Origin: Naegleria gruberi
Lineage: Eukaryota
Assembly: GCA_000004985.1 (NCBI GenBank)
Contig: GG738848.1
DNA: 64,000 bases
Strand: one strand, 5' to 3'
Every line of letters begins with the position of its first letter. Within the stretch, counting starts at the first letter, position 1. Both the position numbers and the translations under genes were made by a program. Below, piece by piece: positions 38,011 to 63,627 of the stretch. Below the pieces are notes generated by a model. It saw only the letters and a list, made by a program, of their open reading frames with translations, was not told where the DNA came from and did not search any database.

Positions 38011-40134
38011 TTATGTCACATTAAAGATATGAACTTTTTTCTTGGAATAATCAGCAACGTAAAGCTCATTATTCACTTCATTCATACACATTCCATAAGG
38101 TCCTTGTAAATGTTCACTTTTGAAACTATGTAAATATCCGCCACTTTCGTCAAATAATTCGATTCTCTTATTGGACGAATCACAAATCAATAATTGTCTA
38201 GAAACCTTATCATACAACAGTCCTCTCACAAAATTGAATTCCCCAATTGAGCTACCACTCTTTCCAAATGAATATTTCAACTCGGCTTGATAATTATTCT
38301 TGAAATTGACTCCAGTTGCAAGTGGAGATTCTGGTGTGATGGAAAGTTTAAAGATTTGAATCTTATTCGAACCTGTTTCACTCACTATTAAATCACCATT
38401 CAGTGTCATGTCTATTCCCCATGGAGAGCTAAAGTTTATACCACAAGTTGATTGATCGAGTCTGTGAATTGGTTGACCAGTTTGTGAATTCAACAAGTGA
38501 ATGCAATTATTATTGTAATCACATACAAATAGCAGTTTGGAATTTTTACAAAATGTCATTCCACTTGGATAGGAAATTATTCCACTTGATTGTTTCCATT
38601 CGTAAAATTGAGATTGTTTGTCAATGATTGAAATTTTCAATAATTGTTCCAAATTGAACTTGTAAACTGAACGATCGTTGGATCCAATGAAGATGCTCGT
38701 TCTAGATGATGCAGAGGAAGGACTCTTTGGAGAGGAAACTGCATCACCTCTTATATCTTCCTCAATAATATACAAACAATGAGGTCTGAAGAAGGTCTTG
38801 ATGGATCCTTTAAATTTCTTTGTTTTCAAATCGTAAACCATTATTCTACTATTGAAATAGTCGCTCACTAAGAGAACATTTAAGAGGTGAGAGATTTTGA
38901 CATCGTATGGATTGGAGAGATTGTTCTTTTCATTTTCTTGTTGTTCCAGAGAGTGAGAATAAGCGATTGTTCGAGGAATGACTCTTCTCTTCATGATATT
39001 CGAAACAGAAGAGAAATGCTCCAACTCTGTTCGAATTTCCTCGACAATTTCACTCAAATCCATGAGTTGATTCTCATATAAATCTGAAATGTCAGTAAAC
39101 TGAAACAACAACTTGATTTTCTCAAATTCTTGAAGCGTTTTGTAATATTTTCGGTGTTTCCTTTCCAATAATTCATATCCTGACATGTCTGATAAACTAG
39201 CAAACTCCAAATACAACAATTTCACATCCTTCTTCAATGTTGCAATTTCTCTGACTATCATTTCGTATTCCAAACATTTCTTCTCAATGCTTTCGTTCAA
39301 TTTCTCTTGTTTCTCCCTCACTACTCTTTGTACATTCTCATAAAATTCATTCGATTGCTGTTTCATCCTCAATTTCATTTTAGAAATCTTGTTTAAATAG
39401 AATTGACATTGATCATTCGTCTTGTTTGGTTCCAAACCATGCATACTCTCCCATTCATTCACACTATTTTCCAATTCACTCAATTCTTGTGTCATTTTCA
39501 ATTTTTCTTCAGCTTCTATATTCTCAATTAGGAAAATATCATGTCCCTTATGCGAATCAACAGAACAAGCAGCACAAATTAATGATTGGCAAGTTTTGCA
39601 GACAGTATTGATAGCTACTGAGTGGAGAATACATTTGGGAGGTTTCTTTCGGGCAGAAAGTGGTGAGGGTTGATGCTGAGAGGGCGAAATTGTATTTAAA
39701 CTCAAGGGAGAAACTAAACTATTCTGAACCGAATCATGAGGAAAGATGTGATGATGTGAGCACTTCTTTAAATGTGTTTTTGTATGGAATTTACATAGAT
39801 ACAAATCACATTCCTTGCAAAAACAAGTTGATTCTTGATATTCTTCTGCTTTCTTCCAACATTTCGAACAAGGTTGAATTTTATAATAAACTCCATTCGA
39901 AACTAAAGATGACGGTGATGATTTAGGAGTTTTAGGTGAGGATTCGGTACTGCCAACAAGAGAAGATGAGGTCGTGTTGCTACTAGCACCACTTGAGGAA
40001 CGAGAATGAATCATGAACTTTTTTTTTATGAAGTTTTTATTAGAGTTGATTGTTGACATGTGTGTTGCATTTGGAAACAAGAAGAGAATGAGGAAACTTT
40101 CTTTCTTGAAACCATGTATGATTCGATTTTTCAA
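38011..40134 (-). CDS. TRIM-like protein with two B-box zinc fingers, a coiled coil and NHL repeats. No RING finger.
   Basis: B-box-like zinc fingers are CSKCWKKAEEYQESTCFCKECDLYLCKFHTKTH and CILHSVAINTVCKTCQSLICAACSVDSHKGHD. A heptad-rich region of about 200 aa follows. At least five NHL-type repeats are present (LLVSDYFNSRIMVYDL, LLFVCDYNNNCIHLLN, DLIVSETGSNKIQIFKL, QLLICDSSNKRIELFD, ELYVADYSKKKVHIFNV). The likely start is an internal ATG (MSTINS or MIHSRSS). Confidence 0.65.
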   Translation of the reverse strand: MKNRIIHGFKKESFLILFLFPNATHMSTINSNKNFIKKKFMIHSRSSSGASSNTTSSSLVGSTESSPKTPKSSPSSLVSNGVYYKIQPCSKCWKKAEEYQESTCFCKECDLYLCKFHTKTHLKKCSHHHIFPHDSVQNSLVSPLSLNTISPSQHQPSPLSARKKPPKCILHSVAINTVCKTCQSLICAACSVDSHKGHDIFLIENIEAEEKLKMTQELSELENSVNEWESMHGLEPNKTNDQCQFYLNKISKMKLRMKQQSNEFYENVQRVVREKQEKLNESIEKKCLEYEMIVREIATLKKDVKLLYLEFASLSDMSGYELLERKHRKYYKTLQEFEKIKLLFQFTDISDLYENQLMDLSEIVEEIRTELEHFSSVSNIMKRRVIPRTIAYSHSLEQQENEKNNLSNPYDVKISHLLNVLLVSDYFNSRIMVYDLKTKKFKGSIKTFFRPHCLYIIEEDIRGDAVSSPKSPSSASSRTSIFIGSNDRSVYKFNLEQLLKISIIDKQSQFYEWKQSSGIISYPSGMTFCKNSKLLFVCDYNNNCIHLLNSQTGQPIHRLDQSTCGINFSSPWGIDMTLNGDLIVSETGSNKIQIFKLSITPESPLATGVNFKNNYQAELKYSFGKSGSSIGEFNFVRGLLYDKVSRQLLICDSSNKRIELFDESGGYLHSFKSEHLQGPYGMCMNEVNNELYVADYSKKKVHIFNVT

Positions 40135-40302
40135 TCAACTTGTGGTTGTCCATGTGCAATACTGTTTATTGATGGATTTAAATAGTGTTTTATTATAAAG
40201 AAAGAGTTTATACAAGCAACTTGACACCAATAGTAGAGGATGGCCATGGATGATGGTGTGAAATCATCCATTCACACTTCTTCAAATAAATATTCGAATC
40301 TC

Positions 40303-41809
40303 TTAATATTTTTCATGTAATTCTTGGAAGTGTGTTTCGGTTTTCTTCCTATTCAAGAAAACTAGTAAAATACACACCACAATACACAATGCAATCAAAG
40401 ATAGAATAAATAATACACCAACAGCAATAATTGGCTTCAATGTAAATAAATAATCAACTGGAGCAGTACTGAATTGAAAGTTTCCACCTTTTGAGAATAC
40501 TACATAGTATTGAGTTGCTTCTCCTGAAAAGAGATAGAGATTAGTTGAATTTACATGATAGTCATAATTGAAAAATTGATTTCTTTCAATATTCCAAGTG
40601 ATTGGTTTCTTTCCAATATAAACATCTTGAATTGTTGCTGTATTTTCAATTCTGATTTCAAAATATGTTTGAGGTTGAGTGGTGAAAGTTGCTGTGAATG
40701 GTGCGGAATTATCACTTTGAATTGAGTATGTTTGTCCAATTTCAAGTTTAGTATAATTAAAACTAATCTTTTTAGCATAAAACAAATTATATACAGCACT
40801 GGGTGGAGAAATTGTGAATGAATAATCTGGATTTCTATTGGAGATGACTTGTTGTGTAAGATTTGATTGAACAATGGCTACCATTTCTTGATTTGAATTT
40901 GAGAATTGCCACACTGATTGAACTGGATCATTAGATTTCAACTCTTGAGCTATCAATGAAATGCAACCATAATTTTGATAGAAATGATCTTCTTTCACAC
41001 TTTCAATTGAATTCCATTCATTTACCAAACAATTCCCAATATAAAATAAAACATTTCGTTGCTGAATAGGATTCAGTTTCAACACCAAATTAGGTTGTCC
41101 ATAAACGNNNNNNNNNNNNNNNNNNNNNNNNNNNNNNNNNNNNNNNNNNNNNNNNNNCTGATTTCATTCTGGGAATGTTAAATTTGCAAAATCCACATTA
41201 ATTTCCATAACTTTTCCCCATTCAACTGGTTTTGTTTCTCCATATGGACAAGCAAGTTTAGATTTTCCAGAAAATCCATAATTGATAACACCACCTTCTT
41301 TTGATTCACCAGTGAATGTGAGAGTTGGTCTTTCAGCAGCAGTGAAATCACATGTTAAAGAAATAGACAATGCTCTTGTAACTCCATCAGTAGCAGGAAT
41401 ACCAGCATGGAAGACCTTTACACCAGCACTTTCATCTGCAGGATTGAGCAATGAAAGTTTAGGAGTACCTTTCTTACCGATAGGATAGCAGAGATTGTAT
41501 TGTTTAGCATATAGATATCCTTGAGCGTCAACAGTACAAACAGCATTGCTTGGATTGGTAACTCCTCCACAAATATTGCTAAAATTCCAACTAATTAGTT
41601 TCCGATAATAATAAACAAAATACATACAAATAAAAGTTGAAATTAGCATCGGTTGCTGCAACTTTATATCCTGAACCAGGAATATCAATATTAGAAAGGT
41701 CGATAATTCCTCTATAAGCAATTGGTAATGAACAAGTCGGTGCGGAGAATACAACATGCACACAACAAGCAAGCAGCAATGTGAGCAACACAAAGGTCAA
41801 TCGTAACAT
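40303..41809 (-). CDS. Surface protein paralogue A with a signal peptide, an extracellular domain and a single C-terminal TM with a short cytoplasmic tail. It has two exons and is interrupted by a 50-N assembly gap.
   Basis: Exon 1 is 41809..41628 (MLRLTFVLLTLLLACCVHVVFSAPTCS...) and ends at a GTATGT donor. A 49-nt intron spans 41579..41627. Exon 2 runs from 41578 to 40303. It is about 90% identical to gene B over the ectodomain. The C-terminus is IIAVGVLFILSLIALCIVVCILLVFLNRKKTETHFQELHEKY. A 1-nt deletion relative to gene B creates a stop just before the gap at 41108..41157. Confidence 0.45.
41108..41157. other. Assembly gap of 50 N inside tandem paralogue A.
   Basis: A run of exactly 50 N. 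The flanks align to adjacent positions of paralogue B, so little or no real sequence may be missing. Confidence 0.9.
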
Positions 41810-42238
41810 TTTTTTTAGTCACTTCCAAAACCAATCAATCATCATGGGTATTAATTTTACCAAAAATTCCGATTATACAAATTAATATTATATATTACAA
41901 CACAAGAGATTAAATCATTTTGACTATTTTATCTAAAACCATTAATTTGTGTATTCATCATCATCATGCTGTTGTGATATTTTTTTTTCAACTTTTTTTG
42001 AAGTTGGACCATAGAGTTTACAACAACTGATAAAGAATCAATTTGTTTGTAAAATAATAATGGGAACATTTTGATAGGATTCACTGAATCAACCTTAATG
42101 GATTATTCCTTGGGGATTAGTTGAGCGTATATTGATCATCAATACTTTAGATTGTCAGTAATATGAATGAGAAACACTCATGAGGTGTGAAATCATTCTG
42201 GCAACAATTTTTATTTTCCAATATTTCCTCTTTTCCTT

Positions 42239-43660
42239 TTAAACAAAATATAACAATGAAAAAATCAATGCAATGATCAACAATGAGCCACCAACACAAC
42301 GATTAGAATCATTTCTAAATGCATGTTCAGTTATAGTGACTTTGAATCCACCTTTTGAAGATACCAAATAGTATTGAGTTGCTTCACCAGAGTAGATTGT
42401 TTCTTTTTGTGTTAAATTCAAATGATAATCATAATTGAAAAATTGATTTCTTTCAATATTCCAAGTGATTGGTTTCTTTCCAATATAAACATCTTGAATT
42501 GTTGCTGTATTTTCAATTCTGATTTCAAAATATGTTTGAGGTTGAGTGGTGAAAGTTGCTGTGAATGGTGCAGAATTATCACTTTGAATTGAGTATGTTT
42601 GTCCAATTTCAAATTTAGTATAATTAAAACTAATCTTTTTAGCATAAAACAAATTATATACAGCACTGGGTGGAGAAATAGTGAATGAATAATCTGGATT
42701 TCTATTGGAGATGACTTGTTGTGTAAGATTTGATTGAACAATGGCTACCATTTCTTGATTCGAATTTGAAAATTGCCACACTGATTGAACTGCCTCATTA
42801 GAGTTCAATTCTTGAGCTATCAAAGAAATGCAACCATAATTTTGATAGAAATGATCTTCTTTCACACTTTCAATTGAATTCCATTCATTTACCAAACAAT
42901 TCCCAATATAGAATAAAACATTTCTTTGCTGAATAGGATTCAGTTTCAATACCAAATTTGGTTGTCCATAAACTGATTTCAATTCTGGAAATGTCAAATT
43001 TGCAAAATCCACATTAATTTCCATAACTCTTCCCCATTCAACTGTTTTTTTTGCATATGGGCAGGCAAGTTTAGATTTTCCAGAAAAACCATAATTGATA
43101 ACACCACCTTCTCTTGATTCACCACTGAATGTGAGAGTTGGTCTTTCAGGAGCAGTTAAATCACATGTTAATGAAATAGACAATGCTCTTGAAACTCCAT
43201 CAGTGGCAGGAATACCAGCATGGACGACCTTTACAACTAATCCATCACTAGTCGAATTCAAACTAATTTGGGGAACCCCTTTAACACCTATTGGAAAGCA
43301 GAGATTGTATTGTTTGGAATATTGATATCCTTGAGCGTCAACAGTACAAACAGCAGTGCTTGGATTGGTGATACTTCCACAAATATTGCTAAATTAGTTT
43401 ACATTAGTTTTCGAATAATCCACAAATATATGATTATTATAAAATGGGTTAAAAAATTAATATACATACAAATAAAAGTTCCAATTAGCATCGGTTCCTG
43501 CAACCGTATATCCTGAGCCAGGAATATCAATATTCGAAAGCTCTATAATTCCAACATCACCAATTTTTAATGAACAAGATGATGCAGAGAACACAACATT
43601 CACACAACAAGTCAACAGCAGTAGCAGGAGTGTGAGAAACCGAAAGGTCAATCGAAACAT
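42239..43660 (-). CDS. Surface protein paralogue B with a signal peptide, an extracellular domain and a C-terminal hydrophobic tail at the extreme C-terminus (GPI-anchor-like). Two exons.
   Basis: Exon 1 is 43660..43470 (MFRLTFRFLTLLLLLLTCCVNVVFSASSCS...) and ends at a GTATGT donor. An 81-nt intron spans 43389..43469 with acceptor aatttAG. Exon 2 is 43388..42239, phase 2, verified in frame with ORF 42239..43261. The protein ends NDSNRCVGGSLLIIALIFSLLYFV with no cytoplasmic tail, which is GPI-signal-like. Confidence 0.55.
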
Positions 43661-44866: not shown

Positions 44867-46258
44867 ATGGCAACGCTGGCACCTTCATCAACCACAAACT
44901 CTACCTCCTCTACAACAACCCCAGTTCTGGATGATAAGAAAATTCTTTCCTTCTTTCTTTCTTGTGATAAATTAAAGCAAAATCACAAATTTCCCAAAAT
45001 GGAAAAAATGTGCAGAGAATTTGTTGTGAAAAATTCAAATTCTGTTGAAATTAGATATATAGCCACTGTTCGATTGTATCTTGCACTGGCTCTTCGGGAA
45101 TTGTTATATTTCAACGATTCTGTTCATCATTTCAAATTGGCAATTTCTGAATGTCCATCTATGGGAAGAGATCCAATAATTTTGACAGATTTTGGACATT
45201 CATTGTTTTCTGCAGGACTTTATGAGGAAGCTCAGGCAAAATTTGATTTGGCACTTGAGATTTATTGTGGAGAATCGAATGAGAAAGATGTGGCTGCTGA
45301 TTCTTTGGATTGGTCACAAGATTCAATTCTGTCCAAGTTGACCAGAAATGCATTGGATATGGAGGAATTGAAAAGTGGATTGGCAATGTGTCAATTAATG
45401 ATTCTCGATCCAAAAACTCCAGAATATAAGGATATTCTATTTATTTTGAAACCTAACAATCAATATTCAATTACTCACTCGCTCACTTTCTATGCAATTG
45501 GACTTTATTATGAAATGATTAAAGATTACAATAAGGCAATTGATCATTACAATGGAGCTTTGAAGAAGGATCAACAGTTTGAGGCAGCACTTGAGAGAAT
45601 GGCTGTTTGTCAAATGAATTTGGGTCAATTTGATAAAGCCAAATCGAGTTATGATCTCACATTGCAAATGAATAAGCAAAATTATAGAGCTCTGTACCAA
45701 TTGGCTAAACTTCATATTAGAGCTGGAATGCCACAATTGTCAAAGAGCAAATTGAGAAGTATTTTGACTCTTGATAAACAGGTGGAAAAGATTGAATCGA
45801 GTGAGGACAGGTTGAAATTGATTTCATGTTTGGCAGAATCATATTTCCTTCTTGGAGTGTTGGAACATTCAAGTCATTCAGAAACTAAAAAGGTCATTCA
45901 TGAGCTATTCCAAAATGCCATCAAATATTTTACCATTTACAGAAATATGACAGTATCTGATCATCAGCAGAGAGAGGAGGAATATCATAATACCATTGGA
46001 TTATGTCAATATTATTGCGAGAAGTATGAAGAATCTCTGGACTGTTTCACACAATCCATCGCTTCAAATCCACAATCAGCTAACGGTTTTTACAACAAGG
46101 GAATGTTATTCGAAACTTTGAGAGATTACAAACAATCCCTGCAACAATACAAACATGCACTTCAACTTTCCCCTCACGACAGTGATTGTGCATGTTCTGT
46201 TAAAAGAATAGATAGACTTTTGAAGAAGAATGCATTCCTCCATCACGACCTTTTGTAA
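44867..46258 (+). CDS. Tetratricopeptide-repeat (TPR) protein.
   Basis: The 463-aa ORF contains several 34-aa TPR-like units (YNKAIDHYNGALKKDQQFEAALERMAVCQMNLGQFDKAKSSYDLTLQMN, ANGFYNKGMLFETLRDYKQSLQQYKHALQLSP). Confidence 0.5.
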   Translation: MATLAPSSTTNSTSSTTTPVLDDKKILSFFLSCDKLKQNHKFPKMEKMCREFVVKNSNSVEIRYIATVRLYLALALRELLYFNDSVHHFKLAISECPSMGRDPIILTDFGHSLFSAGLYEEAQAKFDLALEIYCGESNEKDVAADSLDWSQDSILSKLTRNALDMEELKSGLAMCQLMILDPKTPEYKDILFILKPNNQYSITHSLTFYAIGLYYEMIKDYNKAIDHYNGALKKDQQFEAALERMAVCQMNLGQFDKAKSSYDLTLQMNKQNYRALYQLAKLHIRAGMPQLSKSKLRSILTLDKQVEKIESSEDRLKLISCLAESYFLLGVLEHSSHSETKKVIHELFQNAIKYFTIYRNMTVSDHQQREEEYHNTIGLCQYYCEKYEESLDCFTQSIASNPQSANGFYNKGMLFETLRDYKQSLQQYKHALQLSPHDSDCACSVKRIDRLLKKNAFLHHDLL

Positions 46259-57894: not shown

Positions 57895-59676
57895 TTGCAC
57901 CAATTTTATTTTAACCTTAAAAAAATGTCTATAAGCTCATCGTCAAGAATCACAGATTACTTCATCAATCCTCCTAAGGAAACACCTCCTAAGGCAGAGG
58001 AGAGCGTAATAAAGTACCCGTCTCTCGGTTGTGCTGGAGTGCTTAGTTCTGCTACAGTAGGAAGTGTAGCAACACAATTGTCACAACCTATGTTCCTTAA
58101 CAATTTCGGAATTAATGTTGATGCAGCACTAACTGATGATAAAGGAGAAAGAAACGAAGCAGAAAGAAATTTAGAGAAGGTGTTTTCACAGGACATTATT
58201 GATGACGCTTTGTTTAAAATAACACAAAGAAAATCTAATATTAAGGTTGGAGAAAACCACTCATGTGCTCTTGTTAATTGTAATTTGTTTTTGTCTATTA
58301 GATTTACAGATATGAAAGTGGATATGAACGGAAAAGAGTTAATACTTAAAGCTTCAGATGACGTTACTCACCACTCCAAATTCTCTAATCAAAGAGAAGA
58401 AGAAAAAGCCTCTTTTGATCTAACAGACGACGAGAAATCCTTCAATCTTTTATTGTATTACATGCAAAGTGTGTTGAGGGACACGTTGAAACCAGATTAT
58501 TACGTTATGCTTAATCAATGTAAATTTGTTACGGACCTTTTTGGCAAAAACATTGTTGAGATGTTCAGAGCAGAATCCAAAGAAATGAGGGAGGATTTTT
58601 TTGCAGATTTGTAAGTAGCTAATTAACTGGTTCAATGTTAATATTTCATAGTTTGAAAGTTATTATGCTGTCTCAAAGGCAATGCTTAGTGTTGATGGAG
58701 CAACTTGAAAAGAAAACAGGTTATATTTATCCCATTAAGGCTCCAAGTATGGGGAATGCTGGCGATTTTTACAGACTTTCAATGACAACAGTTCTCCCTT
58801 CGGAATTATTTTACTTTCTATTATTCGAATTGCAAATTACAAATCCAACTTTCACACAATTCAAATTGGCATCAATCATCCAACAGTTAAAAAACAAAAA
58901 GACCGATGTAAAGGCAGTCATAGATAACAAAAAGAGCGTTTCTGATGAAAATATACGTCTCATGGACAATCGTTACAAAAGTCTTGAACAAAAACTAACA
59001 ATACTAGAAAGCTTTTACCCAGAATTCTTAAGAGATCAAAATATTGTTATAGATAACACTGCATGCTGTTCAGCCATCGATAAACTCCAAGCAGGAATTG
59101 CTATTAAAGGAAGCATAATTTCTAATGAAAAAGATGTTAGAAGTCTTTTTTTGGATTGTCAAATTATTTCTAAATATGTAATTGAACTCACTAAGAGAGT
59201 GTTAAGAGAATTAGGAGTTGATATGAGTCTTATTATCACTAACACCGGAAAGGAGTTGAGTGATATAGACATTGACAACCATTTTGATTGTCTAAATATT
59301 AGATTCAAAAGAATGGTAAGTATCAAAACGACTTGAAGTTAAATCATATTGTAGCCAACAAACAGAAATAACAGATCTCGTGTCTTCATTGTTGAGAAAT
59401 ATTTGAATGATAAATGGTCCAAAACTCATATAATCAAACACTATGATGACAAAGATTACTTTGACAACGAAACTTATAGCAACCCTTTAGTTCTTAATAA
59501 GCATCACCGTGACCAAGTCCCTAACCTTTTTGTAGCAATTATGCCATTTATTGTTCATGATCATTCATATTGTACCCAAGAAAACATGCTTAAGATACTG
59601 TACTCTGCATCTCTATGTCTCTCAAAAACTCACAAGATGAAACATGTTCACGGAGACATAAAACCTGATCATATTT
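57895..59676 (+). CDS. Multi-exon gene ending in a protein-kinase catalytic domain. Partial, because the 3' end runs into the assembly gap.
   Basis: Exon 1 is 57895..58610. The ORF-track stop TAA is actually part of a GTAAGT donor. Intron 58611..58651 is 41 nt with acceptor tcatAG. Exon 2 is 58652..59315, with a GTAAGT donor right after ...FKRM. Intron 59316..59354 is 39 nt with acceptor ttgtAG. Exon 3 is 59355..59676+ and encodes RVFIVEKYLNDKWSKT (subdomain V-like) ... KMKHVHGDIKPDHI (catalytic loop HxDxKxxN-like). All junctions were checked in frame. Confidence 0.45.
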
Positions 59677-62600
59677 NNNNNNNNNNNNNNNNNNNNNNNN
59701 NNNNNNNNNNNNNNNNNNNNNNNNNNNNNNNNNNNNNNNNNNNNNNNNNNNNNNNNNNNNNNNNNNNNNNNNNNNNNNNNNNNNNNNNNNNNNNNNNNNN
59801 NNNNNNNNNNNNNNNNNNNNNNNNNNNNNNNNNNNNNNNNNNNNNNNNNNNNNNNNNNNNNNNNNNNNNNNNNNNNNNNNNNNNNNNNNNNNNNNNNNNN
59901 NNNNNNNNNNNNNNNNNNNNNNNNNNNNNNNNNNNNNNNNNNNNNNNNNNNNNNNNNNNNNNNNNNNNNNNNNNNNNNNNNNNNNNNNNNNNNNNNNNNN
60001 NNNNNNNNNNNNNNNNNNNNNNNNNNNNNNNNNNNNNNNNNNNNNNNNNNNNNNNNNNNNNNNNNNNNNNNNNNNNNNNNNNNNNNNNNNNNNNNNNNNN
60101 NNNNNNNNNNNNNNNNNNNNNNNNNNNNNNNNNNNNNNNNNNNNNNNNNNNNNNNNNNNNNNNNNNNNNNNNNNNNNNNNNNNNNNNNNNNNNNNNNNNN
60201 NNNNNNNNNNNNNNNNNNNNNNNNNNNNNNNNNNNNNNNNNNNNNNNNNNNNNNNNNNNNNNNNNNNNNNNNNNNNNNNNNNNNNNNNNNNNNNNNNNNN
60301 NNNNNNNNNNNNNNNNNNNNNNNNNNNNNNNNNNNNNNNNNNNNNNNNNNNNNNNNNNNNNNNNNNNNNNNNNNNNNNNNNNNNNNNNNNNNNNNNNNNN
60401 NNNNNNNNNNNNNNNNNNNNNNNNNNNNNNNNNNNNNNNNNNNNNNNNNNNNNNNNNNNNNNNNNNNNNNNNNNNNNNNNNNNNNNNNNNNNNNNNNNNN
60501 NNNNNNNNNNNNNNNNNNNNNNNNNNNNNNNNNNNNNNNNNNNNNNNNNNNNNNNNNNNNNNNNNNNNNNNNNNNNNNNNNNNNNNNNNNNNNNNNNNNN
60601 NNNNNNNNNNNNNNNNNNNNNNNNNNNNNNNNNNNNNNNNNNNNNNNNNNNNNNNNNNNNNNNNNNNNNNNNNNNNNNNNNNNNNNNNNNNNNNNNNNNN
60701 NNNNNNNNNNNNNNNNNNNNNNNNNNNNNNNNNNNNNNNNNNNNNNNNNNNNNNNNNNNNNNNNNNNNNNNNNNNNNNNNNNNNNNNNNNNNNNNNNNNN
60801 NNNNNNNNNNNNNNNNNNNNNNNNNNNNNNNNNNNNNNNNNNNNNNNNNNNNNNNNNNNNNNNNNNNNNNNNNNNNNNNNNNNNNNNNNNNNNNNNNNNN
60901 NNNNNNNNNNNNNNNNNNNNNNNNNNNNNNNNNNNNNNNNNNNNNNNNNNNNNNNNNNNNNNNNNNNNNNNNNNNNNNNNNNNNNNNNNNNNNNNNNNNN
61001 NNNNNNNNNNNNNNNNNNNNNNNNNNNNNNNNNNNNNNNNNNNNNNNNNNNNNNNNNNNNNNNNNNNNNNNNNNNNNNNNNNNNNNNNNNNNNNNNNNNN
61101 NNNNNNNNNNNNNNNNNNNNNNNNNNNNNNNNNNNNNNNNNNNNNNNNNNNNNNNNNNNNNNNNNNNNNNNNNNNNNNNNNNNNNNNNNNNNNNNNNNNN
61201 NNNNNNNNNNNNNNNNNNNNNNNNNNNNNNNNNNNNNNNNNNNNNNNNNNNNNNNNNNNNNNNNNNNNNNNNNNNNNNNNNNNNNNNNNNNNNNNNNNNN
61301 NNNNNNNNNNNNNNNNNNNNNNNNNNNNNNNNNNNNNNNNNNNNNNNNNNNNNNNNNNNNNNNNNNNNNNNNNNNNNNNNNNNNNNNNNNNNNNNNNNNN
61401 NNNNNNNNNNNNNNNNNNNNNNNNNNNNNNNNNNNNNNNNNNNNNNNNNNNNNNNNNNNNNNNNNNNNNNNNNNNNNNNNNNNNNNNNNNNNNNNNNNNN
61501 NNNNNNNNNNNNNNNNNNNNNNNNNNNNNNNNNNNNNNNNNNNNNNNNNNNNNNNNNNNNNNNNNNNNNNNNNNNNNNNNNNNNNNNNNNNNNNNNNNNN
61601 NNNNNNNNNNNNNNNNNNNNNNNNNNNNNNNNNNNNNNNNNNNNNNNNNNNNNNNNNNNNNNNNNNNNNNNNNNNNNNNNNNNNNNNNNNNNNNNNNNNN
61701 NNNNNNNNNNNNNNNNNNNNNNNNNNNNNNNNNNNNNNNNNNNNNNNNNNNNNNNNNNNNNNNNNNNNNNNNNNNNNNNNNNNNNNNNNNNNNNNNNNNN
61801 NNNNNNNNNNNNNNNNNNNNNNNNNNNNNNNNNNNNNNNNNNNNNNNNNNNNNNNNNNNNNNNNNNNNNNNNNNNNNNNNNNNNNNNNNNNNNNNNNNNN
61901 NNNNNNNNNNNNNNNNNNNNNNNNNNNNNNNNNNNNNNNNNNNNNNNNNNNNNNNNNNNNNNNNNNNNNNNNNNNNNNNNNNNNNNNNNNNNNNNNNNNN
62001 NNNNNNNNNNNNNNNNNNNNNNNNNNNNNNNNNNNNNNNNNNNNNNNNNNNNNNNNNNNNNNNNNNNNNNNNNNNNNNNNNNNNNNNNNNNNNNNNNNNN
62101 NNNNNNNNNNNNNNNNNNNNNNNNNNNNNNNNNNNNNNNNNNNNNNNNNNNNNNNNNNNNNNNNNNNNNNNNNNNNNNNNNNNNNNNNNNNNNNNNNNNN
62201 NNNNNNNNNNNNNNNNNNNNNNNNNNNNNNNNNNNNNNNNNNNNNNNNNNNNNNNNNNNNNNNNNNNNNNNNNNNNNNNNNNNNNNNNNNNNNNNNNNNN
62301 NNNNNNNNNNNNNNNNNNNNNNNNNNNNNNNNNNNNNNNNNNNNNNNNNNNNNNNNNNNNNNNNNNNNNNNNNNNNNNNNNNNNNNNNNNNNNNNNNNNN
62401 NNNNNNNNNNNNNNNNNNNNNNNNNNNNNNNNNNNNNNNNNNNNNNNNNNNNNNNNNNNNNNNNNNNNNNNNNNNNNNNNNNNNNNNNNNNNNNNNNNNN
62501 NNNNNNNNNNNNNNNNNNNNNNNNNNNNNNNNNNNNNNNNNNNNNNNNNNNNNNNNNNNNNNNNNNNNNNNNNNNNNNNNNNNNNNNNNNNNNNNNNNNN

Positions 62601-62885
62601 NNNNNNNNNNNNNNNNNNNNNNNNNNNNNNNNNNNNNNNNNNNNNNNNNNNNNNNNNNNNNNNNNNNNNNNNNNNNNNNNNNNNNNNNNNNNNNNNNNNN
62701 NNNNNNNNNNNNNNNNNNNNNNNNNNNNNNNNNNNNNNNNNNNNNNNNNNNNNNNNNNNNNNNNNNNNNNNNNNNNNNNNNNNNNNNNNNNNNNNNNNNN
62801 NNNNNNNNNNNNNNNNNNNNNNNNNNNNNNNNNNNNNNNNNNNNNNNNNNNNNNNNNNNNNNNNNNNNNNNNNNNNNNNNNNNNN
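59677..62885. other. Assembly gap of 3209 N.
   Basis: A run of N. The 1198-aa minus-strand ORF at 59622..63218 is an artefact of translating N as X. Confidence 0.95.
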
Positions 62886-63627
62886 TTGGTTACAACATTT
62901 ACTCAACCTAAAGGTATTACCATGTTCAATGGTGATATTTATGTGGCAGACACAGGAGTAGCTGTTGTGTGGAAAGTTAAAATTACATACAGAAATGTTG
63001 GTACAGCAACTATTTATGCTGGAAGTTTCAGTACTTTGAATAATAATTATTGCAATGTCATTTATGCTACCAATTGTAAACTTATCAAACCAACAAGTGT
63101 AACTTTCTTTCAAGATGGGACTATGGCAATAGCTGATGGTAGTAGAGTTATTATGGTTAGTAAAGACCAAACGGCTTACCCAGCCCCTTTTTCCATGAGT
63201 GTTACTAATCCTATTCATGTTGTTGCATATTATGCTTCCAACATGTTAGTTTCTGATGCAGGTTTATCACGTTTCATTCAATTCAATAAGGATCAAGCTC
63301 AACCAAATACCAATGAAGTTTTGCGTAATGGATGGTCAGGAAATACATATTTTGGTATTGTTAAACAAGCTGATAATTCCAAGAATGTGTTTTTCCTCAC
63401 ATCTCAAGATCGCAATAACCAAAGAAATCAAGTTGCTTTGTTTAATTTTATTGACAGCGATTTACCAAGCACCAGTATAACAACACTGTATGGCATGTAT
63501 AGTTCTTTCAATTTTGACAATCCACATAATGCTTTGGGCATTTACTTGCCTGAGCCACAACAAATGAGATTGACTTCTAGTAATCAATTATATTTCCCAG
63601 TTTTCAATTCTGCTGTTGTTAAAGTTG
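62886..63627 (+). pseudogene. Subtelomeric open reading frame fragment, beta-propeller/NHL-like, open from the gap edge into the telomere repeat with no stop.
   Basis: There are 247 sense codons with no stop in AT-rich DNA (LVTTFTQPKGITMFNGDIYVADTGVAVVWKV...[11 protein letters not shown]). The frame then continues through the (GGGTTT)n repeat, which has no stop in any frame. The 5' end is lost in the gap. Confidence 0.3.

What the first reader, a model, noticed from the sequence alone, without database searches (positions are those of the whole stretch)
40303..43660. Tandem surface-protein paralogues carry different membrane anchors, one a TM tail and one GPI-like
Two head-to-tail minus-strand genes share a signal peptide, a short phase-2 intron at the same position and an ectodomain that is about 90% identical, with long identical nucleotide runs. 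After the last conserved block they diverge completely. Gene A ends in a TM helix plus a 17-aa cytoplasmic tail. Gene B ends in a terminal hydrophobic GPI-type signal. An anchor swap after duplication is a neat example of modular evolution, and it could change signalling versus raft localisation.
Basis: seen in the sequence. Interest (0 to 1): 0.6.

Follow-up and report, generated by a model that had tools for sequence, protein, structure and literature searches.

The report
Tandem lectin-domain genes with different membrane anchors
Two neighbouring Naegleria gruberi genes encode near-identical sugar-binding-type (MRH) membrane proteins; one keeps the ancestral membrane-spanning helix and short tail, while the other stops inside the helix, leaving a GPI-like end, a familiar way for duplicated receptors to diverge.

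Summary
Two head-to-tail minus-strand genes (B 43660..42239; A 41809..40303) share a signal peptide and a phase-2 intron in the same codon. Their ectodomains are 89% (nt) / ~87% (aa) identical, with identical runs up to 143 nt, and similarity ends after '...SKGG'. This is probably a contig-end artefact, and A is unannotated.

The window is Naegleria gruberi, and B is NAEGRDRAFT_78226. Both proteins carry an MRH (mannose-6-phosphate-receptor homology) lectin domain 70-76% identical to the organism's Atg27/CD-MPR-like receptor, followed by a ~230-aa all-beta domain found only in N. gruberi.

A ends in a 26-residue TM segment plus a 16-aa tail, as do the outgroups NAEGRDRAFT_66816 and 79079, so TM plus tail is ancestral. 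B ends after 14-19 hydrophobic residues with no cytosolic residue. Its best omega candidate is N423 (N-D-S), and no usable splice donor would add an exon. It fits the published GPI rules only at the short end, and no real GPI predictor was available.

'Anchor swap' and 'surface protein' are not shown. In-situ truncation, as in CEACAMs, is more likely. Interest is modest.

The parts
42239..43660 (-). Gene B = NAEGRDRAFT_78226 (446 aa). Exon 1 is 43660..43470, the intron is 43469..43389 and exon 2 is 43388..42239 (stop TAA at 42241..42239).
   Evidence: The spliced translation is 100% identical over its full length to P0001/XP_002682188.1.
43389..43469 (-). Gene B intron: 81 nt, phase 2, GTATGTA..ACTAAT..TTTAG.
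   Evidence: Removing it gives the annotated protein.
43061..43576 (-). Gene B MRH (P-type lectin) domain, residues C29-C173 (the span includes the intron). It has six Cys and the sugar-binding tetrad Q86, R131, E154, Y163.
   Evidence: The family profile hits CI-MPR in the PDB at E=3.5e-48. The four columns align with Q348/R391/E416/Y421 of bovine CI-MPR domain 3.
42338..43054 (-). Gene B juxtamembrane domain of ~230 aa, all-beta, found only in N. gruberi (residues ~176-414).
42242..42313 (-). Gene B C-terminal GPI-like signal. N423 is the omega candidate (also an N-D-S glycosylation sequon), followed by the putative propeptide DSNRCVGGSLLIIALIFSLLYFV.
   Evidence: judged against the rules quoted from PMC10491789.
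40303..41809 (-). Gene A, unannotated (468 aa after gap repair). Exon 1 is 41809..41628, the intron is 41627..41579 and exon 2 is 41578..40303 (stop 40305..40303).
   Evidence: No protein matching it exists in the databases searched.
41579..41627 (-). Gene A intron: 49 nt, phase 2, in the same codon as in B.
41108..41157 (.). 50-N scaffold gap inside gene A exon 2. Its true size is about 0 by alignment with B.
41164..41166 (-). In-frame TGA in gene A, next to the gap. It is caused by a 1-nt deletion relative to B at the contig end.
41512..41514 (-). Gene A codon CTA (L83), where B (CAA, 43324..43322) and almost all relatives have the sugar-binding Gln.
40354..40431 (-). Gene A transmembrane segment IIAVGVLFILSLIALCIVVCILLVFL (26 aa).
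   Evidence: The summed Hessa-scale dG is about -7 kcal/mol.
40306..40353 (-). Gene A cytoplasmic tail NRKKTETHFQELHEKY (16 aa).
42184..42196 (-). 13-mer ATGATTTCACACC 3' of B's stop. The same word lies 3' of A's stop (40267..40255). It may be a colinear remnant of a shared 3' region.
   Evidence: P about 0.02 by shuffling.

Best explanation
A and B are tandem, Naegleria gruberi-specific paralogues. Each encodes a secretory-pathway glycoprotein built from four parts:
- a signal peptide;
- an MRH (P-type lectin) domain derived from the organism's Atg27/CD-MPR-like receptor lineage;
- a ~230-aa lineage-specific all-beta domain;
- a membrane anchor.

The ancestral anchor is a single TM helix plus a short basic cytosolic tail, and copy A keeps it. 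In copy B the juxtamembrane and TM region lies outside the homogenised core of the gene. It diverged in place and acquired a stop after only 14-19 hydrophobic residues, which removed the cytosolic tail. What remains has the layout of a GPI-attachment signal. N423 would be omega, D424 omega+1 and S425 omega+2, followed by a 7-residue spacer and a 14-15-residue hydrophobic end. B is therefore most likely cleaved and GPI-linked by the ER transamidase, or failing that held by a tail-less hydrophobic peptide.

The central ectodomain is kept almost identical, probably by gene conversion. The lectin domains diverge: B keeps the Q/R/E/Y sugar-binding tetrad and A has L in place of the Gln.

Shown: the gene structures, the domain identity, the ancestral state and the absence of a further exon.
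Inferred: GPI processing, truncation in place, gene conversion, and any cellular location.
For: - Identity and organism: B is 100% identical to NAEGRDRAFT_78226.
- MRH domain: the family profile matches CI-MPR structures at E=3.5e-48. P0002 passes Pfam CIMR (38.6 bits against a cut-off of 22.5).
- Origin of the MRH domain: the MRH domains of A and B are 76% and 70% identical to NAEGRDRAFT_79079. That protein scores above threshold for PF09451 ATG27 and PF02157 Man-6-P_recep.
- Ancestral anchor: P0002 has the same C-terminal domain plus a TM helix and a 17-aa tail, and 79079 has a TM helix plus a conserved tail.
- A retains the ...VDYLFT strand seen in P0002 (VDFVYT) just before the TM helix. 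B has ...EHAFRNDSNR there instead.
- B's end has 19 uncharged residues and then stops. N423-D-S425 fits the omega and omega+2 rules. The Kyte-Doolittle sum of the putative propeptide is 34.8, inside the 17.7-39.6 range tabulated for proven human GPI signals.
- No GTA donor exists in the last 90 nt of B.
- Purifying selection acts on the ectodomain: dN/dS is 0.18-0.59.
- Differences are clustered. Silent changes in conserved codons are 14% in the 5' part and 7% in the centre (P=0.03), and there is a 143-nt identical run.
- Precedent: CEACAM GPI signals arose repeatedly from TM exons through stop codons, in families shaped by gene conversion (PMC2832619).
Against: - No dedicated GPI predictor could be run.
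- The spacer (7 residues) and hydrophobic stretch (14-15) are at or below the short end of the ranges quoted in PMC10491789.
- The omega-10..omega-1 stretch (KVTITEHAFR) is modelled as a beta-strand rather than a flexible polar linker, although the model is low-confidence.
- N423 is also an N-glycosylation sequon.
- The 15-19-residue segment has a negative summed Hessa-scale dG (-2 to -3 kcal/mol), so it could simply stay in the bilayer.
- Tail homology between B and A or P0002 is not statistically demonstrable. 'Truncation in place' therefore rests on position and on the identity gradient, not on sequence similarity.
- Presence of the GPI transamidase in N. gruberi was not checked here.
- No transcript evidence was available for either gene.
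Confidence: 0.5

Rival explanations
1. B is not GPI-modified. Its terminal hydrophobic peptide stays as a tail-less membrane anchor, or the unprocessed protein is retained in the ER and degraded, or it is released as a soluble lectin. The A/B difference would then be 'tail versus no tail', a loss of cytosolic sorting or signalling information, rather than TM versus GPI.
For: - The segment CVGGSLLIIALIFSLLYFV sums to -2.0 kcal/mol on the Hessa scale, and the 15-mer to -3.0.
- The spacer and hydrophobic lengths fall short of the quoted GPI ranges.
- There is no obvious flexible linker before omega.
- The B lineage has more MRH substitutions than A relative to 79079 (15 vs 6), which would fit some relaxation of constraint.
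Against: - Single-pass proteins with no cytosolic residue at all are unusual.
- A hydrophobic peptide at the extreme C-terminus behind a signal peptide is the defining layout of GPI proproteins.
- Its hydrophobicity lies inside the range of proven GPI signals.
- B keeps all four lectin residues, and the ectodomain is under purifying selection.
- B gained the small-residue cluster NDSN exactly where an omega site is needed.
Confidence: 0.27
2. The anchors differ because of a true modular replacement. The duplication or a later recombination had its 3' breakpoint near codon 414, and one copy recruited an unrelated 3' end.
For: - After ..SKGG the two tails are statistically unrelated at protein level, and the flanks cannot be aligned.
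- Similarity also begins abruptly at the A-run before the ATG.
Against: - Identity falls in steps rather than at one point: about 99% in codons 271-360, then 86%, then 73% in codons 393-414. The 5' edge shows the same decay, 77% in the signal peptide.
- B still shows the strand pattern F-x-hydrophobic-T...F and a V-G-G / V-G-V motif in the same positions as A.
- A shared colinear 13-mer lies 3' of both stops (P about 0.02).
- TM and tail sequences evolve fast in this family in any case. A vs P0002 tails are only marginally similar (83 of 2000 shuffles score as high).
Confidence: 0.12
3. The difference is an artefact. Either B's TAA is a sequencing error or is read through, in which case B would read ...SLLYFV-x-KEKRKYWKIKIVARMISHLMSVSHSYY*, a normal TM helix plus a basic tail. 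Or gene A is a pseudogene or a mis-scaffolded chimera.
For: - The frame stays open for 27 codons after B's TAA and begins with a basic stretch.
- Gene A contains a gap and an in-frame TGA, and it has no annotated product.
Against: - The sequence after B's stop is purine-rich, so it gives K/R/E in all three frames. An open run of 27 codons is not unusual here (another frame runs 30 codons).
- B lies far from any gap.
- A's two contig ends abut exactly where B is continuous, with the reading frame preserved.
- A's 3' flank differs from B's, so it is not a haplotype of B.
- A's ectodomain shows dN/dS well below 1.
Confidence: 0.08

Closest known systems
Atg27 / cation-dependent mannose-6-phosphate-receptor-type MRH proteins (Pfam PF09451, PF02157). 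The nearest example is N. gruberi NAEGRDRAFT_79079, with orthologues in N. fowleri, N. lovaniensis, Willaertia magna and Acrasis kona.
   Same: Both are type-I proteins with an N-terminal MRH domain. The MRH domain is 70-76% identical to that of 79079. Six Cys and the Q/R/E/Y positions are conserved in B.
   Different: A and B have an extra ~230-aa all-beta domain between the MRH domain and the membrane. They lack the conserved Atg27-type TM helix and tail (..LYFIIGA.VLKFK...IP...FWKD.PFL..DG...Y-x-x-hydrophobic). They get no PF09451 or PF02157 hit at E<=1. A has Q->L at the sugar-binding Gln, and B has no cytosolic tail at all.
Cation-independent mannose-6-phosphate receptor repeats (Pfam PF00878 CIMR; PDB 6um1, 6v02, 1q25).
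   Same: The best solved-structure relatives are CI-MPR domains 5 and 3. The binding tetrad aligns column for column.
   Different: A and B have a single MRH domain (two in the paralogue 66816) instead of 15 repeats. Ligand specificity is unknown, and A and B alone fall below the Pfam threshold.
CEACAM family: GPI-anchored members derived from TM-anchored CEACAM1-like ancestors (PMC2832619). The FcgammaRIIIA/B and NCAM/LFA-3 TM-versus-GPI pairs are comparable, from my own knowledge.
   Same: These are recently duplicated, clustered paralogues with near-identical ectodomains, homogenised by gene conversion. One copy is TM plus tail, and the other ends in a shortened hydrophobic peptide created by a stop in the TM-coding sequence.
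   Different: The protein fold differs (Ig versus MRH), and the organism is a heterolobosean amoeba. GPI anchoring is experimentally proven for CEACAMs but only inferred here. In CEACAMs the ligand-binding domain is the part kept similar, whereas here the lectin domain is the most divergent part.

Membership tests
MRH (mannose-6-phosphate receptor homology) / P-type lectin domain | Significant sequence or profile similarity to known MRH domains. | tested here: met
   A profile of A, B, 66816 and relatives against the PDB hits CI-MPR at E=3.5e-48 and also CD-MPR. P0002 passes PF00878 at 38.6 bits against a 22.5 cut-off. UniRef names B 'MRH domain-containing protein'. A and B alone give no Pfam hit.
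MRH (mannose-6-phosphate receptor homology) / P-type lectin domain | Conserved cysteine framework (three disulfides in the domain). | tested here: met
   B has C29, C67, C78, C94, C139 and C173. A has the equivalent six. These columns are invariant or nearly invariant across 21 relatives. Disulfide pairing itself was not tested.
MRH (mannose-6-phosphate receptor homology) / P-type lectin domain | Gln-Arg-Glu-Tyr sugar-binding tetrad. | tested here: inconclusive
   B has Q86, R131, E154 and Y163, aligned to Q348/R391/E416/Y421 of bovine CI-MPR domain 3, so B meets it. A has L83 instead of the Gln, so A does not. Binding was not tested.
MRH (mannose-6-phosphate receptor homology) / P-type lectin domain | Flattened beta-barrel fold. 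| tested here: inconclusive
   The AF2 model of B has pLDDT 21-40 over the MRH region because the alignment held only 4 sequences.
Atg27 / CD-MPR family (PF09451, PF02157) | An MRH domain followed directly by the conserved TM helix and a cytosolic tail with a C-terminal Y-x-x-hydrophobic sorting motif. | tested here: not met
   Neither A nor B hits PF09451 or PF02157 at E<=1, while 79079 and its orthologues do. A's tail NRKKTETHFQELHEKY has no such motif, B has no tail, and both have an extra 230-aa domain.
GPI-anchored proteins (C-terminal attachment signal as described in PMC10491789) | N-terminal ER signal peptide. | tested here: met
   By inspection only: MFRLTFRFLTLLLLLLTCCVNVVFSA|SS has a basic n-region, a hydrophobic core and a small-x-small c-region. 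No predictor was run.
GPI-anchored proteins (C-terminal attachment signal as described in PMC10491789) | Small omega residue, omega+1 not Pro, small omega+2. | tested here: met
   N423-D424-S425 is the only candidate with an acceptable omega+2 and spacer.
GPI-anchored proteins (C-terminal attachment signal as described in PMC10491789) | Hydrophilic spacer (8-12 residues) followed by 15-20 hydrophobic residues running to the very C-terminus. | tested here: inconclusive
   The spacer NRCVGGS is 7 residues. The hydrophobic stretch LLIIALIFSLLYFV is 14 residues (15 with S432, 19 uncharged in all), and nothing follows it. The Kyte-Doolittle sum of 34.8 is within the range of proven signals.
GPI-anchored proteins (C-terminal attachment signal as described in PMC10491789) | Flexible polar linker at omega-10..omega-1. 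| tested here: inconclusive
   KVTITEHAFR is modelled as a beta-strand, but at pLDDT below 50.
GPI-anchored proteins (C-terminal attachment signal as described in PMC10491789) | The organism has the GPI transamidase and biosynthesis pathway, and the protein is actually lipid-linked. | not tested
   Only general statements were found: GPI-anchored proteins occur in all eukaryotes studied (PMC10216265 abstract), and there is 'evidence of GPI-anchored proteins' in the Naegleria pangenome (PMC9928731). The N. gruberi genome could not be searched with these tools, and biochemistry is not testable here.
Type-I single-pass membrane protein (gene A) | A signal peptide, one hydrophobic segment of about 20 or more residues, and a positively charged cytosolic flank. 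| tested here: met
   A has a 26-residue uncharged segment with summed dG of about -7 kcal/mol, followed by NRKK.

The most novel reading that the evidence does not exclude
B is a true GPI-anchored P-type (MRH) lectin displayed on the amoeba surface, and A is its TM-anchored, tail-bearing partner with an altered sugar site (Q->L). Together they would form a protist 'paired receptor' whose shared stalk is kept identical by gene conversion. As far as I know this would be the first GPI-anchored MRH-domain protein. It would also be an independent re-invention, in Heterolobosea, of the TM-to-GPI route seen in primate CEACAMs. The pair might serve glycan recognition of prey or substrate rather than lysosomal sorting.
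Probability: 0.3. Interest if true: 0.45.

Novelty: new variant of a known kind. Interest (0 to 1): 0.3.

Why it matters
If B is GPI-linked, it would show that the shortcut of truncating a TM helix to make a GPI signal operates in a deeply divergent eukaryote, on a lectin fold that is otherwise known only with TM anchors or as a soluble protein. It would also give a natural pair for asking what a cytosolic tail adds to an MRH receptor.

Three practical points for N. gruberi annotation also follow:
- Gene A is a real but unannotated gene, hidden by a scaffold gap.
- The models for 66816 and 79079 probably lack their first exon.
- A three-member, species-restricted MRH family with a new ~230-aa domain exists.

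None of this touches a long-standing open question, and the evolutionary pattern itself is well known.

Tried and rejected
- Pfam on A and B gave nothing significant: DUF3974, LapA and Fim1F_C at E>0.02 were rejected as noise.
- Looking up B and P0002 in the contig collection for transcript or alternative-assembly evidence found nothing on record.
- Test for residual homology of the tails. Protein shuffles were not significant. The nucleotide local alignment beyond the shared CAAAAGGTGGA anchor adds almost no score. I therefore dropped the idea that B's hydrophobic end is demonstrably the N-terminal half of A's TM helix. It remains a positional inference.
- 'Ghost tail' after B's stop (KEKRKYWK...). 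I rejected this as evidence because the region is purine-rich and gives basic or acidic residues in every frame.
- Hidden 3' exon in B. I enumerated all GT..AG combinations starting in the last 90 nt (94 in total). None has a GTA-type donor.
- P0010, a 917-aa butterfly repeat protein, hit the C-domain profile through 8 summed weak repeats. I rejected it as spurious.
- Further family members in the window: tblastn found only A and B.
- Literature searches for Naegleria GPI machinery or M6P receptors found nothing specific. Galian et al. 2012 on the marginal hydrophobicity of GPI signals is not held.
Full report
**Observation**

The region holds two head-to-tail genes on the minus strand. Gene B runs 43660..42239. 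Its exon 1 is 43660..43470 and its intron is 43469..43389 (81 nt). Gene A runs 41809..40303. Its exon 1 is 41809..41628 and its intron is 41627..41579 (49 nt).

Both introns begin GTATGTA, carry an ACTAAT branch-like box and end TTTAG. Both are phase 2 and interrupt the same Phe codon in ..NFYF|NICG...

From the ATG to the motif ..SKGG, 1230 coding sites align with 89.3% nucleotide identity and about 87% amino-acid identity for the mature ectodomain. Exact shared runs are 143, 86, 80 and 66 nt. A 143-nt run never occurred in 5000 shuffles of the variable sites. Upstream of the A-run before each ATG, and downstream of ..SKGG, nothing aligns.

A 50-N scaffold gap (41108..41157) lies in exon 2, and an in-frame TGA (41166..41164) sits next to it. 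The TGA comes from a 1-nt deletion relative to B (GAATGAAATCAG vs GAATTGAAATCAG). The right-hand contig starts CGTTTATGG where B reads CAGTTTATGG. The two contig ends therefore abut with no residue missing and the frame preserved. I read this as low-quality contig ends at the start of the most repeat-like stretch, not as a pseudogene. This is an inference.

**Identity**

Spliced gene B is 100% identical to NAEGRDRAFT_78226 of Naegleria gruberi, which is listed as XP_002682188.1 and which UniRef names 'MRH domain-containing protein'. The window has 34% G+C.

No protein corresponding to gene A exists in the 5.8-billion-cluster database or among the representatives searched exhaustively. A is therefore unannotated.

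**Anatomy**

Pfam does not recognise A or B directly. Three lines of evidence still place the N-terminal domain firmly in the MRH family:

- The only full-length relative is NAEGRDRAFT_66816 (P0002, 35% identity). It carries two copies of the N-terminal domain and passes PF00878 CIMR (38.6 bits against a 22.5 cut-off).
- An exhaustive HMMER search of 1.84 billion representatives found 25 hits. All except P0001 and P0002 match only the N-terminal ~140 residues.
- A profile of 21 of these sequences hits the cation-independent mannose-6-phosphate receptor in the PDB at E=3.5e-48 and also hits CD-MPR.

In the alignment to bovine CI-MPR domain 3, the family's conserved Q, R, E and Y fall on chain residues 392, 435, 460 and 465. 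After subtracting the 44-residue signal peptide, these are the known binding residues Q348, R391, E416 and Y421. The numbering comes from my own knowledge, and the offset fits exactly.

B has all four residues (Q86, R131, E154, Y163). A has R, E and Y but Leu (CTA, 41514..41512) in place of the Gln.

The closest MRH domain outside the trio is NAEGRDRAFT_79079. It is 76% identical to A and 70% identical to B, which is as close as A and B are to each other in this domain (76%). It scores above threshold for PF09451 ATG27 and PF02157 Man-6-P_recep. Its orthologues in N. fowleri, N. lovaniensis, Willaertia and Acrasis are named Atg27.

tblastn finds no further members in the window. The neighbouring genes are unrelated: a B-box/NHL protein and a TPR protein.

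**The two C-termini**

A ends with a 26-residue uncharged segment, IIAVGVLFILSLIALCIVVCILLVFL, with a summed Hessa-scale dG of about -7 kcal/mol. A 16-aa tail, NRKKTETHFQELHEKY, follows it.

B ends ...FKVTITEHAFR-N423-D-S-NRCVGGS-LLIIALIFSLLYFV, with nothing after the hydrophobic stretch.

I compared B with the rules summarised in PMC10491789: a small omega residue, omega+1 not Pro, a small omega+2, a spacer of 8-12 residues, 15-20 hydrophobic residues, and a flexible omega-10..-1 linker.

- B meets the omega and omega+2 rule at N423 and S425.
- It is slightly short on the spacer (7 residues) and on the hydrophobic length (14-15 residues, or 19 uncharged).
- It has no obvious flexible linker before omega.
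- N423 is also an N-glycosylation sequon.

The Kyte-Doolittle sum of the putative propeptide is 34.8. That lies inside the 17.7-39.6 range tabulated for proven human GPI signals in PMC9520029.

B's end is thus GPI-like but borderline by rule. A real predictor was not available.

For a missed downstream exon, I enumerated all 94 GT..AG introns of 35-450 nt whose donor lies in the last 90 nt of B. The donors are all GTT or GTG, never GTA as in the two verified introns.

The frame does stay open for 27 codons after the TAA and begins KEKRKYWK. However, the sequence is purine-rich and gives similar peptides in all frames, so I do not count this as evidence for a lost tail or for read-through.

**Direction and mode of change**

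Both outgroups, 66816 and 79079, have a TM helix and a cytosolic tail. TM plus tail is therefore ancestral, and B is the derived copy. A also keeps the ..VDYLFT strand that 66816 has (VDFVYT) immediately before the helix. B has ..EHAFRNDSNR there.

Whether B's end arose in place or by replacement cannot be settled from similarity. The tails are no more alike than segment-wise shuffles. For B vs A, 1654 of 2000 shuffles score as high. For B vs 66816, 303 of 2000 do. Even for A vs 66816 the figure is 83 of 2000.

Three observations favour divergence in place.

1. Identity decays in steps towards both ends: 77% in the signal peptide, about 99% in codons 271-360, then 86%, then 73% in codons 393-414.
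2. Silent changes in conserved codons are half as frequent in the centre as in the 5' part (7% vs 14%, P=0.03). This suggests a homogenised (gene-converted) core inside an older duplication whose flanks have diverged beyond alignment.
3. A colinear 13-mer, ATGATTTCACACC, lies about 50 nt 3' of both stop codons (P about 0.02).

This is the same route documented for primate and pig CEACAMs. There, stop codons in a TM exon repeatedly created GPI signals in a family shaped by gene conversion (PMC2832619).

**Function (inferred)**

Ectodomain dN/dS is 0.18-0.59, so both copies look functional. The lectin domain is the most divergent part (78% amino-acid identity, dN/dS 0.59), and the stalk is nearly identical.

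B keeps the full sugar-binding tetrad but has no cytosolic tail. A has a tail but lacks the key Gln. The tail carries no recognisable Y-x-x-hydrophobic, dileucine or KKxx motif on inspection.

The label 'surface protein' is untested. The nearest relatives are endomembrane sorting and autophagy receptors. Neither A nor B meets the Atg27/CD-MPR definition, since they lack the conserved TM helix and tail and have an extra domain.

**Verdict**

The anchors differ. TM plus tail in A is solid. 'GPI-like' for B is reasonable but unproven, and I put it at about 0.5.

'Swap', 'modular' and 'surface' are not supported.

The pattern is a known kind of paralogue divergence. The new elements are its occurrence on an MRH lectin in a heterolobosean, the species-restricted stalk domain and the unannotated gene A. 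I score interest at 0.3.

Noticed in passing
window 40303..41809 (-): Gene A has no counterpart in any protein source searched. It appears to be an unannotated N. gruberi gene, hidden by the 50-N gap and the adjacent TGA.
   Followed up: partly
P0002 (NAEGRDRAFT_66816) and P0003 (NAEGRDRAFT_79079), not in the window: Both public gene models begin inside the MRH domain without a signal peptide (MGVFNASG..., MIFLFSNICG...). They have probably missed a short first exon at the same ..YF|NICG.. intron site as A and B.
   Followed up: no
window 41512..41514 (A) vs 43322..43324 (B): A single-base difference (CTA vs CAA) replaces the MRH sugar-binding Gln with Leu in gene A. The Gln (rarely Glu) is present in nearly all 21 aligned relatives.
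   Followed up: partly
window 42184..42196 and 40255..40267 (-): The shared 13-mer ATGATTTCACACC lies about 50 nt 3' of both stop codons. It is the only colinear match in otherwise unalignable 3' flanks (P about 0.02). It could be a remnant of a common 3' UTR or a small regulatory element.
   Followed up: partly
P0008 (ENA metagenome fragment, 99 aa): This environmental MRH fragment, 54% identical to B, ends ...CPILNSEANSSVFLSMRLVVCLIVVFWIY. The MRH domain is followed at once by a terminal hydrophobic stretch. It may be another tail-less or GPI-like MRH protein, or a gene-call artefact on a 1-kb contig.
   Followed up: no
window 59677..62885: A second, 3209-N scaffold gap. The 1198-aa 'ORF' at 59622..63218 is an artefact of reading through the Ns.
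   Followed up: no
window 38014..40059 (-) and 44867..46255 (+): The flanking genes are unrelated to the pair. One is a B-box zinc finger + NHL-repeat protein (TRIM-like architecture) and the other is a TPR-repeat protein.
   Followed up: partly
MRH domains of A, B and NAEGRDRAFT_79079: A's MRH domain is as close to the Atg27-like gene 79079 (76%) as to its tandem partner B (76%). The MRH domains of 66816, which shares the stalk domain, are only 47-53% identical. The MRH and stalk parts may therefore have different histories, through domain exchange or conversion between the Atg27-like gene and this family.
   Followed up: partly
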